DNA of 64,000 nucleotides from Ostreococcus lucimarinus (taxonomy: Eukaryota): the NCBI GenBank assembly GCA_000092065.1, contig CP000585.1, one strand, 5' to 3'. The notes below the pieces were generated by a model. It was not told the DNA's origin. It searched no databases and saw nothing but the letters and a program-made list of their open reading frames with translations. The position numbers and the translations under genes are program-made. Shown in pieces: positions 12,289 through 55,595 of the stretch; position 1 is the first letter of the stretch, and every line of letters begins with the position of its first letter.

Positions 12289-14125
12289 TCATCGACGTCT
12301 GCCTCGGCGCAAACCGAGAAGAAGTTCACTAGCGTCAGAGAGCTCCGACATGCAGCTTTTCGACGCCACGAGCGAACCAGCGACAGATGGCGTGGCGCTA
12401 GCAAAACCATCGCGGTTGATTCCCGAGTGTTCTGTGCTCATGGGATTCATGTACGATCTCGCGGGGACGGTCTCCGACGCGCGCGGCTGCGGTCTCTTTG
12501 GCGATTCGTCCACTTGCGAACGTTGCAAACCGGCATTGTTCGCGCTTTTCGCTGCCGCGTTTACGACGCTTTCAAGCGCGTACGCGCCTCGAGACACATT
12601 GAGGAATCGTGCGTCTTGACTCAGACGACTGTACAGTGTGTTCGCCGGCGTCTTTCCGGCGAGCCTTACGAGCGAACGATCCTTGATCAAGCGCACCATT
12701 TCGCTCACTTGCAAACCTTCGGGGCCGGCGGTGAGTAAGAGGTGATAACACGCCTCGGAAATCGACTTGAACGGGCAATCCGTTTCGTCCGAGGTCACTA
12801 TGCCCTTGCCCGAGTCCCCGACGAAGGAGCCGCCTACGGTCATCGGCGGCTTACTCGTTGTATTCCCTGAATGATGTTCGCTCGTCGTCATCGTGCCGCC
12901 AAAGTTACTCGGCACTGCCTCGCGCTTGTAGCGCTTGGTGCTATCGCCGGCTTCACTGACGCTCATCATCGCCGCCAAGTGCTTGTACGCGGAATCTGGT
13001 CCGACAATACCACTTTCCTGCGGCGCGCCTCTCGGCGACCAACGCCCGTACGGTGACAACGTCCAACCTCTTCTAATCGACGCGTGCTTAGGCCGTGTCT
13101 TATTCCACGTCTCGCGAATCCACGATTGTCCGGTGGAGTCTTGGAACACTATCAAGGATGTATCGTTATTCACGCCAACGCCCGGAAAACAAACGACAAT
13201 TTTCCCGCGAGCGTCGGTGATTTGAGAAATATATCCTTCGCACCACCTGTTGTTGTAATGCACGTCGACCTCCTCGTTCAAGCGACGAGACGCGTCCACG
13301 GCTAGATTGTCAACTGGTGGTGTCGGGCGAACAGTACTCGACAGCGTGCTCGTGGGCAAACGAACGTTATCTGCGACACCATCGCCGCCGCCTTCCGGCG
13401 CGACGCCGAGCGTGATAAACTCCCCGTCGTTTTCGATAACCTTGGCGCTCGCCCAGGTCGCGCCGTGGGACTTGTGCGGACGCGCTACTTCTACCATTGA
13501 CCCTGGTTCGTACGCCAAGTTCACGTCAACGAGCTCCGAACCCGAACTCTTGTCACTTTCGCTCTCGCACCCGACGTAGTCCTCCGTCTCGCGACGACGC
13601 TTGCGACAAGCCGCCGCGCCCGCGAACTCAACCTCATCCGCACCCCGTCGCCCCGTCGACTCCCCGTCCAGATCGATCACTTTATACGTCGCGCGTTTGA
13701 CCAGCACAAACATCGGATCTACGTTCGCGTTCGCATCGTCAGTCTTCTTGCCGAAAAATCGTCGCGCGTCCTACGTCGCCTCGCCTTCGTCGTCGTCGCA
13801 CCTTTAGACAACTGTCCGACGATCGTATTCTGCGGCGTCGCACCGCCGAGTTTCACCCCACCCGATCGCTCTCGAACAGCTCTCGTGATCTCTTTCACCT
13901 ATCGTCGCCCGTCGCGCGTCGCGCGTCGCGTCGTCAGTCTCGCGTTCGCCTCGGCGCGTCGACATCGCGGTCCGTGTGCGTGTACAGTCTCACACCGGCC
14001 CCCGTCCGCGCGGGGATACCCCCGTCGTCGCCTCGCGCGCGCACCGTCAGGCCCTGTTCCCCCGCCGCGCGCAGTGCGTCGTAACACGCGCGTTTGATCG
14101 TCCCCTCGCGGAACCGCGACGCCAT
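12289..14125 (-). CDS. Chromatin-reader-like protein: HARE-HTH, tandem Agenet/Tudor-like repeats, second HARE-HTH; three exons
   Basis: Model complement(join(12289..13718,13802..13898,14045..14125)). Exon 1 MASRFREGTIKRACYDALRAAGEQGLT; donor ACG|GTGCGCGCG; exon 2 VKEITRAVRERSGGVKLGGATPQNTIVGQLSK; donor AAG|GTGCGACG; exon 3 DPMFVLVKRATYKVIDLDGE... (the large ORF). Spliced N-terminus ACYDALRAAGEQGLTVKEITRAVRERSGGVKLGGATPQNTIVGQLSKDPMFVLVKRATYKV is collinear with the C-terminal ACYHLLLTAGPEGLQVSEMVRLIKDRSLVRLAGKTPANTLYSRLSQDARFLNVSRGAYAL. CTGAC motifs 17 and 32 nt upstream of the two acceptor AGs. Middle: GSMVEVARPHKSHGATWASAKVIE / VDVHYNNRWCEGYISQIT Agenet-like pair. Confidence 0.6.
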
Positions 14126-15456
14126 TCTCGTCGCCGCGCCGCGCGCACGCCCTCGCGAATCCACGGTCGTTCGCGTCGTTCGCGACGCGATTCCCGTCGA
14201 CGAATCCGGCGCGCCGCGACGCGCGCGCGACGCGCGCGCGCCCGATCGCGCGAGATACGCGCGGTAGAGAATACGATCGAAGTCGTCGACGCGAACGAAG
14301 GCGCTCGCCGCGATCGCGCGACGCGCGAAACGCGCGTGCGAGTGCGGCGCGCGGTGCATTTCGGGCGCGCCGACCCCGTCGCGGTCGTCGAGTCCTGACT
14401 CGTCCGAGAAAATCTCTCGCGCGCGCGCGTGCCGAGCCGACAGCGCGCGCGCGCGCGCGACGCCGCGACGGCGCGCGCGGCGCGTCGATCGCGCGGCGAC
14501 GCGCGATGATGATCGCGTCGTCGATCGAACGCGGGCGAGACGGCGCCGCGACCGCGCCCGCGCGGGGAGCGGGCGTCGATCGCGCGCTCGCCCTAGAATT
14601 CCGACATTGGCACCGCACGGGGCGCTATGGGACGCAGTCGGATCCGACGCATCCGCGCGCGACGCGGCGTCGTCGCGATCGCGATCGACGTCGCGCGACG
14701 ACATCCCGCGAGCGTAACATTCGCGCGCGCGTCCGCGCGCGCGATCGTCGCGTTCGCGCGTCGCGCGACGCGTCGCGACGCGCCGAACGCCTCGACCGAC
14801 CGCGTCCGCGAGCGCGCGGCCGCGACGCGACGTCCGCGCGTCGCGCGCGCGTCGCCGCGCGCGATCAAGCGCGCGTCGCGCCGCATTCGCGCGCGCGAAT
14901 TAATCCCCGATCGCGCGCGCGCGCGTCGGGCGTCGTCGTCGCGCGTCGCGCGCCGCGCGCCCGCGCGCGCGCGTCGCGACGAGTCCCGATGGGCGCGCGC
15001 GGGCGCCCATCGCGCGAAATTGCAAAAAATACTCGACGTTTCGAATTCTCGTACGCGCATTCAGTGAGACGATGCGAACCGTTGCGAATCGCGAAAACAC
15101 GGCGGATGTCGTCGGGCGCGATGGACGACCGACCGCGCTCCAGGGGTGGCGCGCGTCGCGTCGTCGGCACTAAACCACGCGCGATGTCTCTCGCGAACGA
15201 GCTCGCGATGAAGTCCGCGGTCGCGTCTCGCGCGATCGCGACCAAGGTGCGCGCGACGGCGGCGCGCGCGCGCGAACGGCGGCGCGATCGGCGCGCGATG
15301 GCGCGCCATCGTCGACGCTTCGATCGGATACGTCGAGACGATCGGACCGCGAGGACGACGCGCGCGCGGTCGGGACGACGCGCGATCGCGCGGGGTGGTT
15401 GGAGCGAGCGTCGCGGGATGTGTAGAGACTGACGGTGGAGCACGCGCGCGCGCGCG

Positions 15457-53570: not shown

Positions 53571-53787
53571 TCATCGATCATCATCTAAGCACACCTAGCA
53601 GGCTTTTATCTATTTAGCGATAACTGTTACAACTGTTCCCTTCGCACGCTCGAAGATTTGAAAAAACCTAACACGCGGGTGTTTTCTTGTTGACAGTCTG
53701 TCGCCGAGCGCGGCGCGACGCCACCGCGCGACGCCGAGTCGCACGCGCGTGATTTCCGCGCTCAACACTTCTCACGACACCGTATCG

Positions 53788-55595
53788 ATGATGCACGCGC
53801 GCGCGCTGACGTTCACGCGCGCCGTCGGCGGCGATCGTCGCGCGATGCGCGCCGAGCACAAAAAACCGGCGGCGGGACGAATCCGCGCGGTGACGCGCGC
53901 GTCCGGTGAAGACGACGAGATCGCGCTGCTCGAAAAGGCGCTGAAGATGGCGAAGACGCGCAAGGCGAACGGCGAGGCGAGCGCGGCGCCGGCGGCGCCC
54001 GCGGCAGGTGGTGCGTACAGCGGCTCATCATTCAACGTCAAGACGTTCAACGCGATTTCACCGGTGGGTTTGAACAAGTTCCCGAAAGGGAAGTACGCGG
54101 TGAGTGGAGACGATAAGGAGCTGCCGGGAGACCCGATGGCGATGATGCTGCGGTCGCACAAACTGCAAGTGAGTGAGGTACCGTCGACGGTGCGAGGCAT
54201 CGTGCGCTGCGGCGCCGGTACGAATAACATTCCGGTGAAGGAGATGAGCGAGCTTGGTATTCCGGTATTTAACACCCCGGGTGCGAACGCGAACGCGGTG
54301 AAGGAGCTCGTGGTGTGCTCTTTGCTCCTGGCGAGCCGTGGGATCATCGAGGGTAACAAGCACGTGAACGATGTCATCAACGTTGAAGAAAACGGCGACT
54401 ACGCCAAGATTAGCGTGCGCATCGAAAAGGACAAGGCTATGTTCGGTGGTACTGAAATCGAGGGCAAGACGCTCGGCGTCATCGGTTTAGGCGCTATCGG
54501 TTCTCGGTACGTTTCGTTTCGCTCGCGCGTTCGCCGGTTAAATTCGCCGGTTAAATTTCGTCGCTCGACGAGCGACGAGTCTTCCTTCTCAAAGGAATGA
54601 TGATTCTCAATTAGATGTTTGATGGCGTTCAATCGACGGTCATCGTCGACGGACGTCGCTGAGACTACAAAATTGAGGCATATCCATTCTTTACCTGACC
54701 TTTGAGTCGTTTTCGAACTCTCGCGGCCGTGTGGTTGACTCTCACTCGGCTTTTGACTAACCGCGTCTCTCGTTTTTCGCTTTGTCGCAGTGTCGTAAAC
54801 GCCGCGCTTGGGCTCGGCATGAACGTCATCGGTTATGATCCGGTGCTTTCTCTCGAAGCCGCGTGGCGTCTTCCGGGGGACAAGATGTCCCGAGCGGACG
54901 ACTTGGATGAACTCTTCGCTTTGGCGGATTACATCACCATCCACGTCCCGTACATCAAGGGTGTCACCCACCACTTGATCGACGCCAAGTCTTTGGCGAA
55001 GTGCAAGCCGGGCGTGAACTTGCTCAACTTTGCTCGCGGTGAAATCATTGATGGTTCCGCTGTGCGTGCGGGCTACGACGCGGGCAAGCTCACGGGCAAG
55101 TACGTGTCTGATTTCTCGGATCCGGATTTGATGGGTCACCCGAGGCACATCGTGCTTCCGCACTTGGGCGCGTCGACAGAGGAGGCGGAAGAAAACTCCG
55201 CCGCCATGGCGGCTGATACGATGATGGATTTCCTTGAAACCGGTACGATCCGCAACTCGGTGAACTTCCCCACCACCATTTTACCGCCTCACAAGAACTC
55301 CTCCGGTGCCCGTCTCTGCATCGTCAATAAGAACGAATCCGGCGCCCTCGGTGAGATCACCACCTTCCTCGGCACGCAAAACTGCAACATTCTTCAACAG
55401 ATCAACACCTCTCGCGACAGCGTTGCGTACACGGTGATCGATTTGGAAACCTGCCCCGAAGATCCGGGTGCTTTGCAAGACTCCCTCGCCGCGGCGTGCC
55501 CGATGGTGATCTCTTCTCGCTTCATCGGCTCCGTCTTCAACGACGAGCTCGGTCAACCGGGGACGTACTTTTGGGTTCGCGAAAACGGCAACTAA
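53788..55595 (+). CDS. SERA: D-3-phosphoglycerate dehydrogenase, E. coli SerA-like type with C-terminal ACT domain; two exons
   Basis: Model join(53788..54506,54791..55595): exon 1 ends ..GVIGLGAIGS(R) with donor CG|GTACGTTTCG; 284-bp comparatively AT-rich intron with TGACTAAC 36 nt before ..TGTCGCAG|T; exon 2 VVNAALGLGMNVIGYDP... NAD-binding and catalytic His/Glu regions; ACT-like C-terminus (NSVNFP...IVNKNESGALGEITTFLG...YTVIDLE) as in E. coli SerA. Confidence 0.85.

What the first reader, a model, noticed from the sequence alone, without database searches (positions are those of the whole stretch)
13719..54790. Consistent intron grammar: GTGCG (or GTGAG) donors, CTGAC branch motif 17-37 nt before AG, 82-146 bp length
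Six introns deduced independently from protein-homology breaks share features. They are 13719..13801(-), 13899..14044(-), 24583..24665(-), 41531..41669(+), 43550..43671(-) and 44283..44364(+). Five of the six start with GTGCG (24583..24665 starts GTGAGA), and each has CTGAC upstream of the acceptor. The PGDH intron 54507..54790 is different: GTACGT donor, TGACTAAC branch, 284 bp and AT-richer. Such near-identical short introns raise the question of introner-like intron families (reported in Micromonas). I could not see extended intron-to-intron sequence identity by eye beyond these motifs.
Basis: seen in the sequence. Interest (0 to 1): 0.5.

Follow-up and report, generated by a model that had tools for sequence, protein, structure and literature searches.

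The report
Ordinary Ostreococcus introns, known splice signals
The seven introns are real, but their shared GTGCG and ACTGAC motifs are the splice signals already published for this alga (Ostreococcus lucimarinus), not a family of copied "introner" elements, and the one odd intron is odd because it carries a known small nucleolar RNA gene.

Summary
The window is Ostreococcus lucimarinus CCE9901 nuclear DNA. All seven introns are real. One start is off by one base: 41532, not 41531. Five are missing exactly at the predicted junctions in intron-less, cDNA-like contigs. Four give proteins identical to RefSeq models. One (24583-24665) rests on homology alone.

The grammar is far beyond chance. It was also published in 2008. 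Irimia & Roy (PMC2483917) found that, of 319 EST-confirmed introns outside chromosome 2, 87% carry ACTGAC and 66.5% GACTGACG. They reported a GTGCGTG donor consensus, a CGCAG acceptor preference and a branch-to-AG peak of about 20-35 nt.

The introner idea is not supported:
- Intron interiors are no more alike than composition-matched shuffles.
- BLAST finds only simple-repeat matches.
- A metagenome scan found only orthologous copies.
- A published genome-wide introner screen lists this genome but not among introner hosts.

The 284-nt PGDH intron differs because it hosts a box C/D snoRNA at 54586-54708. This is the ortholog of O. tauri Ot-CDsno48 (snoZ266 family), already reported.

One modestly new point: the aldo-keto reductase intron is absent from three related lineages. 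That suggests a recent single-copy gain.

The parts
13899..14044 (-). Intron 1 (146 nt, phase 0) of the HARE-HTH gene XP_001417941.1. Signals: GTGCGCGC ... GACTGACG, then 32 nt, then ATAG.
   Evidence: The spliced product is 100% identical to XP_001417941.1. Four intron-less Logan contigs, L033-L036, join GGGCCTGACG|GTGAAAGAGA. The HARE-HTH Pfam domain is continuous across the junction. The orthologous stretch of L023 also carries the intron, but there L023 is 99-100% identical to the window, so it is not an independent lineage.
13719..13801 (-). Intron 2 (83 nt, phase 1) of the same HARE-HTH gene. Signals: GTGCGACG ... GACTGACG, then 17 nt, then GTAG.
   Evidence: (junction TTGTCTAAAG|ATCCGATGTT).
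24583..24665 (-). Intron (83 nt, phase 0) of an aldo-keto reductase gene. Signals: GTGAGAC, (GAC)8 repeat, GACTGACC, then 17 nt, then ACAG. It is specific to the O. lucimarinus lineage.
   Evidence: Splicing restores the start codon and a conserved N-terminal segment. There is no RNA evidence. The intron is present in L026 and L028-L032, which are 99.0-99.8% identical to the window. It is absent at nucleotide level (GTCGTCAAG|GGRTGCTGG) in the syntenic orthologs L027, L023 and L024.
41532..41669 (+). Intron (138 nt, phase 1) of the TRAP-alpha gene XP_001417705.1. Signals: GTGCGCGC ... AACTGACG, then 35 nt, then CGCAG.
   Evidence: exact RefSeq match. Logan contig L021 joins CCGCCTCAG|GCGTGGCGG. 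An intron sits at the same position in L014, L015 and L017 with GTGCGT, GGACTGACGA and CGCAG.
43550..43671 (-). Intron (122 nt, phase 0) of the aspartate aminotransferase gene. Signals: GTGCGTGC ... GACTGACG, then 23 nt, then CGCAG.
   Evidence: The spliced 444-aa product is present verbatim in public collections. Contigs L021 and L022 join CTCGGGGTG|GGGGCGTAT. An intron sits at the same position in L014 and L017 with GTGCGTG, CGACTGACG and TAG.
44283..44364 (+). Intron (82 nt, phase 1) of the HORMA-domain gene XP_001417706.1. Signals: GTGCGCAC ... GACTGACG, then 20 nt, then GCAG.
   Evidence: The spliced product is identical to XP_001417706.1. An intron sits at the same position in L014 and L017 (GTGCGAC ... 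TTGACTGACC ... CGCAG) and in L018 (GTACGCG ... ATTGACG ... GTAG).
54507..54790 (+). Intron (284 nt, phase 2, 50% GC) of the D-3-phosphoglycerate dehydrogenase gene. Signals: GTACGT donor, GACTAAC branch motif, a T-rich tract, CGCAG. It hosts a snoRNA.
   Evidence: Logan contigs L019 and L020 join GGTTCTCG|TGTCGT. An intron is present at the same codon in L018. It is absent in L014, L015 and L017, where 505 aa are collinear with 1515 nt.
54586..54708 (+). Intronic box C/D snoRNA, the ortholog of O. tauri Ot-CDsno48 (plant snoZ266 family). Box C ATGATGA is at 54597. Box D CTGA is at 54695; it lies inside the intron's only CTGAC. The terminal stem is CTCAAAGG / CCTTTGAG.
   Evidence: Rfam RF00332: 31.1 bits, E = 6.4e-4, full model length, below the gathering score of 43. 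It is 86% identical (105/122) to the published Ot-CDsno48 sequence. In a three-way alignment, only this part of the intron is conserved. Ot-CDsno48 lies in an intron of ostta05g01360 (NAD(P)-binding). Its predicted targets are 25S.G1912, U4.G105 and U1.G20, and an ortholog is scored present in O. lucimarinus.
15247..15468 (+). Candidate additional 5' intron (222 nt) of the gene whose ORF runs 15457-18012. Signals: GTGCGCG ... GACTGACGG, then 33 nt, then ACAG. It would join a 13-codon first exon (MKSAVASRAIATK, ATG at 15208). Unverified.
   Evidence: Found by the grammar scan; sequence and frames. Neither model was found in the protein collection. The L024 ortholog has a plausible 5' intron in the equivalent place.
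39749..39967 (+). Intron-like stretch (219 nt, in frame, no stop codon) inside the Myb gene ORF. Signals: GTGCGG ... GGACTGACGA, then 18 nt, then CGCAG. It is probably coding sequence that mimics the grammar.
   Evidence: The ortholog in L014 has a low-complexity linker there without splice signals. Three population indels (-12, +3, -3 nt) are all multiples of three. The spliced form is not in the protein collection; the unspliced form is.

Best explanation
The six short introns are regular U2-type spliceosomal introns of Ostreococcus lucimarinus. They are not mobile elements.

In this intron-poor genome, introns outside the atypical part of chromosome 2 carry unusually strict signals:
- a GUGCG(U/C) 5' splice site;
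- a (G)ACUGAC(G) branch site about 20-38 nt from the 3' splice site;
- a (C)AG acceptor with essentially no polypyrimidine tract.

The spliceosome therefore finds them mainly through the donor and a yeast-like strong branch site. Any set of true introns from this genome will show the same grammar.

Their interiors are unconstrained, GACG-rich, T-poor simple sequence. They drift quickly and change repeat copy number.

The PGDH intron is also a normal U2-type intron. It is longer and more AT-rich because it carries a box C/D snoRNA gene (Ot-CDsno48 / snoZ266 family). That snoRNA is presumably released from the excised intron by debranching and exonucleolytic trimming.

Shown: precise excision, the signals, their statistics, positional conservation, lack of inter-intron homology, and snoRNA orthology. 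Inferred: which spliceosomal components read the signals, and snoRNA processing and expression in this species.
For: Organism: exact matches to O. lucimarinus CCE9901 RefSeq proteins.

Excision: intron-less contigs match the predicted junctions for five introns. RefSeq proteins are identical to four spliced models.

Signals and statistics.

Published description of the same grammar, PMC2483917. For 319 EST-confirmed non-chromosome-2 introns:
- 87.15% contain ACTGAC and 66.5% GACTGACG;
- the 5' splice-site consensus is GTGCGTG (4.8 bits);
- there is a CGCAG preference;
- the branch-to-AG distance has a broad peak around 20-35 bp.

Mamiellales as a group prefer GYGCGY donors while keeping a standard U1 pairing region (10.1101/2022.06.08.495308).

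Age: the TRAP-alpha, AAT and HORMA introns sit at identical positions, with the same signals but unalignable interiors, in another Ostreococcus clade.

No family similarity.

Composition: T is 8.7% in the introns against 19.7% in coding sense strand. Pyrimidines make up 20-53% of the last 15 nt.

snoRNA.
Against: Intron 24583-24665 has no transcript or RefSeq support, only homology.

The intron-less Logan contigs are taken to be assembled transcripts. I could not read the run metadata.

The U1, U2 and U6 snRNAs of this species were not examined here. The statement about U1 rests on a preprint that shows only Micromonas explicitly.

The snoRNA match is below Rfam's gathering score, and its expression in O. 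lucimarinus was not tested.

Seven introns is a small sample. The genome-wide claim rests on the literature.
Confidence: 0.93

Rival explanations
1. The six introns are members, perhaps degenerate ones, of an introner-like element family that spread through the genome as in Micromonas pusilla.
For: The sizes are similar (82, 83 and 83 nt for three of them). All share a GACGAC-rich, T-poor interior, the same ends, and a branch motif at a similar offset. Pair A2-E exceeds all but 3 of 300 shuffles. One intron (24583-24665) is lineage-specific.
Against: - No alignable similarity beyond the signals. Interior identity equals that of shuffles for 13 of 15 pairs, and none survives multiple-test correction.
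- With dust filtering, BLASTN gives no full-length or intron-to-intron family match. B is entirely masked. A2 matches the start of B for only 41-44 nt of simple repeat. Unfiltered hits are runs of 76 nt or less, at 73-97% identity, of simple GAC/GCG-type sequence that also occur in coding DNA.
- Micromonas introner copies are 89-100% identical, whereas regular introns within a strain are under 50% identical (PMC4540971).
- The TRAP-alpha, AAT and HORMA introns are positionally conserved in another clade.
- A 20-mer from the lineage-specific intron hits only its own locus in 241 million metagenome records.
- The systematic introner screen of Gozashti et al. lists GCA_000092065.1 among its genomes. 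Ostreococcus does not occur in the parts of the supplement that hold the table of introner-bearing genomes.
Confidence: 0.03
2. The shared grammar is an ascertainment artefact. The reader chose intron boundaries by looking for these motifs, so their recurrence is circular.
For: The boundaries were set by eye, and one was misplaced by one base. ACTGAC overall is not enriched in the window: 22 observed against 19 expected.
Against: The boundaries are fixed independently by intron-less contigs and RefSeq proteins. The enrichment lies inside the introns: 6 in 654 nt, P = 4e-10. EST-based statistics in the literature give the same consensus.
Confidence: 0.01
3. The PGDH intron belongs to a second intron class, the chromosome-2 type (GTRNGT donor, weak branch site, AT-richer), which may be handled differently by the splicing machinery.
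For: It has a GTACGT donor, an ACTAAC rather than ACTGAC branch motif, a T-rich 3' tract (80% pyrimidine) and 50% GC. Irimia & Roy describe two intron populations in this genome.
Against: Chromosome-2 introns are described as short (40-65 bp) and as lacking canonical branch signals. This one is 284 nt and has a perfect ACTAAC. ACTRAC variants occur in a few percent of normal introns. The orthologous intron in L018 uses GACTGACG. The AT-rich, conserved core is the snoRNA, which explains the length and composition.
Confidence: 0.04

Closest known systems
Regular spliceosomal introns of O. lucimarinus outside chromosome 2 (Irimia & Roy 2008, PLoS Genet, PMC2483917)
   Same: The donor (GTGCG(T/C)), the branch motif ((G)ACTGAC(G)), the branch-to-AG spacing, the CAG/CGCAG acceptor, the length range around the reported median of 111 nt, and the intron-poor gene context all match the published consensus.
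   Different: Nothing of substance. One donor is GTGAG. One branch-to-AG distance (38 nt) is at the edge of the reported peak. The absence of a polypyrimidine tract and the T-depletion are quantified here but are not emphasised in that paper.
Micromonas introner elements (D-IE, ABC-IE, E2-IE; Worden 2009, Verhelst 2013, Simmons 2015, PMC4540971)
   Same: Both are short introns in a mamiellophyte alga, in sense orientation, with canonical splice sites. One intron here is lineage-specific.
   Different: Introner elements are multi-copy, with tens to thousands of copies at about 89-100% identity. These introns share no alignable sequence. Several are ancient by position. No second copy of the lineage-specific one was found.
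Strong-signal introns of intron-poor eukaryotes, such as hemiascomycete yeasts (GUAUGU / UACUAAC)
   Same: Both have near-invariant donor and branch motifs, a constrained branch-to-3' splice-site distance, few introns per gene and a bias toward the 5' end of genes. This is the general pattern described for intron-poor genomes.
   Different: The motif sequences differ: GUGCGU and ACUGAC. The genome is 62% GC. The same genome also holds a chromosome region with weak-signal introns.
Ot-CDsno48 of O. tauri / plant snoZ266 (Rfam RF00332), an intronic box C/D snoRNA (Bardou et al. 2020, PMC7671301)
   Same: The host gene is orthologous (NAD(P)-binding dehydrogenase on the syntenic chromosome). The location is intronic. 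Identity is 86%. The stretch after box C and the stretch before box D are identical, and the terminal stem is the same.
   Different: The central part is not conserved. Expression and targets were not tested in O. lucimarinus. The Rfam score is below the gathering threshold.

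Membership tests
O. lucimarinus regular (non-chromosome-2) U2-type introns | Precise removal from mRNA at GT...AG boundaries | tested here: met
   Intron-less contigs cover five of the seven introns. RefSeq proteins are identical to four spliced models. Intron B is supported by homology only.
O. lucimarinus regular (non-chromosome-2) U2-type introns | 5' splice site matching the GTGCGTG consensus | tested here: met
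   Five of six begin GTGCG, and one begins GTGAG. Binomial P = 4e-7 against the window background.
O. lucimarinus regular (non-chromosome-2) U2-type introns | ACTGAC (extended GACTGACG) branch motif about 20-35 nt upstream of the AG | tested here: met
   Six of six have ACTGAC and four of six have GACTGACG. The branch A lies 20-38 nt from the 3' splice site. Poisson P = 4e-10.
O. lucimarinus regular (non-chromosome-2) U2-type introns | Location outside the low-GC, intron-rich half of chromosome 2 | tested here: inconclusive
   The window is 61.7% GC and intron-poor. The contig is 847,696 bp. The O. tauri ortholog of the PGDH host gene is on chromosome 5. The chromosome identity of the window was not read directly.
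Introner / introner-like elements | Many copies in one genome with high sequence identity over most of their length | tested here: not met
   No similarity beyond the signals and composition among the six introns. A 20-mer from intron B occurs only at its own locus in the metagenome collection. The published screen does not list this genome as a host. The whole O. lucimarinus genome was not searched here.
Introner / introner-like elements | Presence/absence differences between close relatives (recent insertion) | tested here: inconclusive
   Met for intron B only: absent in L027, L023 and L024. Not met for the TRAP-alpha, AAT and HORMA introns, which are conserved in another clade. No polymorphism was seen among 13 contigs that are 99.7-100% identical.
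Introner / introner-like elements | Transposon hallmarks: target-site duplication and terminal inverted repeats | tested here: not met
   Intron B is a clean insertion between AAG and GG. No duplicated flank or terminal repeat is visible. This was checked by eye only.
U12-type (minor spliceosome) introns | RTATCCTT donor and TCCTTAAC branch motif | tested here: not met
   The donors are GTGCG, GTGAG or GTACG. The branch motifs are ACTGAC or ACTAAC.
Box C/D snoRNA, snoZ266 / Ot-CDsno48 | Box C (RUGAUGA), box D (CUGA) and a terminal stem that brings them together | tested here: met
   ATGATGA is at 54597 and CTGA at 54695. An 8-bp stem, CTCAAAGG / CCTTTGAG, flanks them.
Box C/D snoRNA, snoZ266 / Ot-CDsno48 | Score at or above the Rfam gathering threshold | tested here: not met
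   31.1 bits against a gathering score of 43. E = 6.4e-4 for a 401-nt search; the full model length is matched.
Box C/D snoRNA, snoZ266 / Ot-CDsno48 | Orthology to an experimentally detected snoRNA in the same host intron | tested here: met
   86% identity to Ot-CDsno48. That snoRNA lies in an intron of ostta05g01360, an NAD(P)-binding protein gene. Only this segment is conserved between the O. lucimarinus and L018 introns. The authors score an ortholog as present in O. lucimarinus.
Box C/D snoRNA, snoZ266 / Ot-CDsno48 | Guide complementarity to rRNA, and expression | not tested
   No rRNA sequence or small-RNA data for this species was available. Predicted targets are taken from PMC7671301, Table S4.

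The most novel reading that the evidence does not exclude
The aldo-keto reductase intron (24583-24665) is a recent, single-copy intron gain in the O. lucimarinus lineage.

It is an 83-nt insertion at an AAG|GG site. It consists largely of a (GAC)8 simple repeat, yet carries a complete species-type donor, GACTGAC branch site and CAG acceptor. It is absent from the syntenic gene in three progressively more distant Ostreococcus lineages. By CDS identity the grouping is ((O. lucimarinus, L027 92%), L023 87%), L024 71%. That gives one gain against three losses.

If this is right, an intron-poor alga with very strict splice signals still creates new introns by a route other than introners. Its simple GACG-rich intron bodies may be the raw material.
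Probability: 0.5. Interest if true: 0.4.

Novelty: already known. Interest (0 to 1): 0.15.

Why it matters
The result mainly matters as a calibration. A tool-less reading of raw sequence rediscovered the real, unusually strict splice code of O. lucimarinus, which has been in the literature since 2008. The same is true of the snoRNA that explains the deviant intron, published in 2020.

For annotation it has three practical uses:
- A GTGCG / ACTGAC / CAG model finds introns in this genome very specifically. Of the 22 ACTGAC sites in 128 kb of strand, six are in verified introns and one or two more are in candidates.
- In-frame, stop-free introns are read through by prokaryotic gene callers. That produced false 'intron-less' orthologs in metagenome data.
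- A CTGAC inside an intron may be a snoRNA box D rather than a branch site.

The only item with research value is the apparent recent gain of one intron. It could be followed up as a case of intron birth without introners.

Tried and rejected
1. Rfam at gathering threshold and ARAGORN on the whole window found nothing. The snoRNA appeared only with the E-value threshold on the intron itself.

2. I first concluded from tblastn that the TRAP-alpha intron is absent in L014, L015 and L017. This was wrong. Inspection of the DNA shows exon 1, GTGCGT, GGACTGACGA and CGCAG.

3. I first treated L023 as a sister lineage 92% identical to the window. A sliding comparison shows it is a mosaic. It is 99-100% identical up to window position 22.1 kb and about 80% identical beyond. 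Only its divergent part says anything about intron B.

4. Population contigs L001-L013 are 99.7-100% identical to the window. They give no presence/absence or covariation information.

5. The pattern GTGCG N40-70 ACTGAC is not enriched in the window as a whole: 3 observed against 1.7 expected. The signal lies in the placement inside genes.

6. Other ACTGAC sites are antisense to genes or inside continuous, conserved ORFs and were set aside: 1881, 12955, 21292, 26431, 29040, 30474, 30755, 31715, 44206, 47588, 51959, 61775, 62738.

7. The Myb candidate (39749-39967) could not be resolved.

8. Exact look-ups of my models for the aldo-keto reductase protein and for the 15457 gene found no public protein. 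No RefSeq member was found in the aldo-keto reductase cluster.

9. The snoRNA was not found within 10 kb of the intron-less PGDH gene in L014, L015 or L017.

10. A search for compensatory U1 or U2 changes was not possible, because no snRNA gene lies in the window.

Full report
**Origin of the window.** Eight long ORFs from the window are present verbatim in public collections. Several are RefSeq proteins of Ostreococcus lucimarinus CCE9901 (XP_001417949.1, XP_001417952.1, XP_001417943.1) on a contig of 847,696 bp. The window is 61.7% GC and gene-dense. It is therefore nuclear DNA of a mamiellophyte picoalga. By synteny with O. tauri it is probably chromosome 5; that is an inference.

**Are the introns real?**
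- Removing the seven proposed intervals restores long ORFs for six genes: a HARE-HTH protein (two introns), an aldo-keto reductase, TRAP-alpha, aspartate aminotransferase, a HORMA protein and D-3-phosphoglycerate dehydrogenase.
- One coordinate needs correction. The TRAP-alpha intron starts at 41532 (GTGCGC), not 41531. Only then does exon 1 (MRLTRATTLAILLSAS-) join in frame.
- The spliced TRAP-alpha and HORMA proteins are identical to XP_001417705.1 and XP_001417706.1.
- The spliced HARE-HTH protein is identical to XP_001417941.1.
- The spliced aminotransferase and PGDH proteins occur verbatim in Logan assemblies.
- The contigs that encode them are collinear with the window except that exactly 54507-54790, 43550-43671, 41532-41669, 13899-14044 and 13719-13801 are missing. 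I read these as assembled transcripts. L021 lacks two introns that lie on opposite strands, while thirteen genomic contigs of 99.7-100% identity keep all the introns they cover.
- The aldo-keto reductase intron has no such support. Splicing it supplies the only start codon and a segment (VPR..PL..T.L.PS.VxK) conserved in all homologues. The read-through ORF lacks that segment.

**Is the grammar real and non-random?** Yes.
- Five of six short introns begin GTGCG and one begins GTGAG.
- All six contain ACTGAC, four of them as GACTGACG. The branch A lies 20-38 nt from the 3' splice site.
- All seven introns end in AG.
- GTGCG follows only 3.7% of GT dinucleotides in the window (P = 4e-7 for 5 of 6).
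- Six of the window's 22 ACTGAC sites fall in 654 nt of intron, against 0.08 expected (P = 4e-10).
- On the sense strand these introns are only 8.7% T, against 19.7% in coding sequence. They have no polypyrimidine tract.

**What is it?** It is the published splice code of this species. Irimia & Roy (2008, PMC2483917) devote a section to 'The peculiar case of Ostreococcus'. Among 319 EST-confirmed O. lucimarinus introns outside chromosome 2 they report:
- 87.15% contain ACTGAC and 66.5% contain GACTGACG;
- the 5' boundary shows the 'atypical consensus GTGCGTG' (4.8 bits);
- the 3' end prefers CGCAG;
- branch-to-AG distances peak broadly at about 20-35 bp.

A later preprint from the same school states that Mamiellales prefer GYGCGY donors over most of their genomes. 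It also reports that their U1 snRNA candidates keep the standard pairing sequence.

**Introner hypothesis.**
- Local all-against-all alignment gives at most 43 score units, about 20 matched bases, with z of 3 or less.
- MAFFT gives 36% mean column identity and does not even align the branch motifs.
- After removing the donor and everything from the branch motif onward, interior identity matches dinucleotide-preserving shuffles. The best pair reaches 3/300, which is not significant for 15 pairs.
- BLASTN with the low-complexity filter returns no full-length or intron-to-intron family match. The longest cross-match is A2 against the simple-repeat start of B, 41-44 nt at about 80%. Without the filter, hits are runs of 76 nt or less of simple GAC/GCG-type sequence that also occur in coding regions.
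- By comparison, Micromonas introner copies are 89-100% identical, and regular introns within a strain are under 50% identical with only self-hits.
- The systematic screen of Gozashti et al. lists the O. lucimarinus assembly among its genomes. Ostreococcus does not occur in the parts of the supplement that hold the table of introner-bearing genomes.

**Comparative evidence.** I fetched syntenic loci from other Ostreococcus lineages through a neighbouring helicase gene and through the reductase.
- In the lineage of L014, L015 and L017 (helicase 68-74% identical), the TRAP-alpha, aminotransferase and HORMA introns sit at the same codons. They have GTGCG donors, GACTGAC branch sites and (C/T)AG acceptors. 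Their interiors are not detectable by BLASTN and differ in tandem-repeat number.
- In L018 the HORMA intron is present with GTACGC and TTGAC signals. An extra HORMA intron also exists there.
- These introns are therefore old, and only the signals are constrained.
- Two real differences were found. The PGDH intron is absent in L014, L015 and L017.
- The reductase intron is absent, at nucleotide resolution, in L027, L023 and L024, whose gene order around the reductase matches the window.
- By CDS identity those lineages nest as ((O. lucimarinus, L027 92%), L023 87%), L024 71%. One gain is more parsimonious than three losses.
- The intron is present in six O. lucimarinus-like contigs. They differ only in (GAC)7 versus (GAC)8 and one SNP.
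- A 20-mer from it occurs nowhere else in the metagenome collection.
- It looks like a recent single-copy gain, not an introner. Its source is unknown.

**The deviant PGDH intron.** An Rfam search of the intron finds a full-length match to the plant box C/D family snoZ266 at 54586-54708. The score is 31.1 bits, E = 6.4e-4, below the gathering score.
- It has box C, box D and an 8-bp terminal stem.
- The intron's only CTGAC is this box D. The true branch motif is GACTAAC near the 3' end.
- The element is 86% identical to Ot-CDsno48 of O. tauri.
- Bardou et al. (2020, PMC7671301) detected Ot-CDsno48 by RNA-seq. They placed it in an intron of ostta05g01360 (NAD(P)-binding), assigned it to snoZ266, predicted 25S.G1912 among its targets, and scored it as having an ortholog in O. 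lucimarinus and O. mediterraneus.
- In a three-way alignment of the O. lucimarinus intron, the L018 intron and Ot-CDsno48, only the snoRNA is conserved.
- This explains the greater length and lower GC of this intron. It is also already known.

**Additional candidates.** The grammar scan flagged two further sites.
- 15247-15468 is a possible 5' intron. An equivalent intron is plausible in L024.
- 39749-39967 is an in-frame, stop-free, intron-like stretch in a Myb gene. Its population indels are all multiples of three and its ortholog shows no signals. It is probably coding. Both need RNA data.

**Verdict.** The introner interpretation is not supported. Both the grammar and the snoRNA are already in the literature. 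The remaining point of some interest is the apparently recent gain of the reductase intron.

Noticed in passing
window 54586-54708 (+), inside the PGDH intron: Intronic box C/D snoRNA, the ortholog of O. tauri Ot-CDsno48 (snoZ266 family). Its box D supplies the intron's only CTGAC. It explains why this intron is long and AT-rich.
   Followed up: yes
window 24583-24665 (-); L023 about 3030, L027 about 500, L024 about 10270: The aldo-keto reductase intron is present only in O. lucimarinus-type contigs. It is cleanly absent (GTCGTCAAG|GGRTGCTGG) in three related lineages, so a recent gain is likely. Its body is a (GAC)8 repeat whose copy number varies (7 or 8) among environmental contigs.
   Followed up: partly
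L014, L015 and L017, about 2984-4504 (PGDH): This Ostreococcus lineage has an intron-less PGDH gene. No copy of the snoRNA lies within 10 kb on either side of the neighbouring helicase gene used to fetch these loci. The intron and its snoRNA were lost from this site, or the snoRNA lies elsewhere.
   Followed up: partly
window 15247-15468 (+): Candidate extra 5' intron (GTGCGCG ... GACTGACGG ... CAG). It would join a 13-codon first exon to the 851-aa alanine/lysine-rich protein gene. The alternative is a start at ATG 15457.
   Followed up: partly
window 39749-39967 (+): A 219-nt in-frame, stop-free stretch in a Myb gene has a perfect donor, branch and acceptor grammar. Population indels are all multiples of three, so it is probably a disordered coding linker that mimics an intron.
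   Followed up: partly
the six short introns (coordinates in parts): There is strong strand asymmetry. T is only 8.7% on the sense strand, against 19.7% in coding sequence. There is no polypyrimidine tract before the AG, and CpG observed/expected is about 2. 3' splice-site recognition must rely on the branch site and distance rather than a U2AF-type tract.
   Followed up: partly
L023 (JGI Ga0494229_03684) against window 13608-27712: This is a mosaic contig. It is 99-100% identical to the window up to about 22.1 kb and about 80% identical beyond. It is either a chimeric metagenome assembly of two Ostreococcus lineages or a recombinant.
   Followed up: partly
L014 16950-17092 (TRAP-alpha intron); protein P0412: In-frame, stop-free introns are read through by prokaryotic gene callers in metagenomes. 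This gives 'proteins' with spurious N-termini (272 aa instead of exon 2 alone) and a false impression that the intron is missing.
   Followed up: yes
protein clusters of window genes: GenBank proteins labelled '[bacterium]' from MAG N9S31 fall in the same 90% clusters as O. lucimarinus nuclear proteins. The accessions are MDA9599264.1, MDA9599523.1, MDA9599357.1 and MDA9599354.1 ('HORMA domain-containing protein'). The MAG appears to contain Ostreococcus contigs.
   Followed up: no
L014 14858-15031 against L017 (AAT intron): The orthologous AAT intron in this lineage contains a 16-nt tandem repeat (GACGAGGACGCGCGAG). L014 has three copies and L017 has two. This illustrates rapid length change in intron interiors.
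   Followed up: no
L018 about 11760-11836 (HORMA gene): This more distant Ostreococcus lineage has a second HORMA intron (GTGCGTC ... GACTGAA ... ATAG) at a codon where O. lucimarinus has none. This is further evidence of intron turnover within the genus.
   Followed up: no
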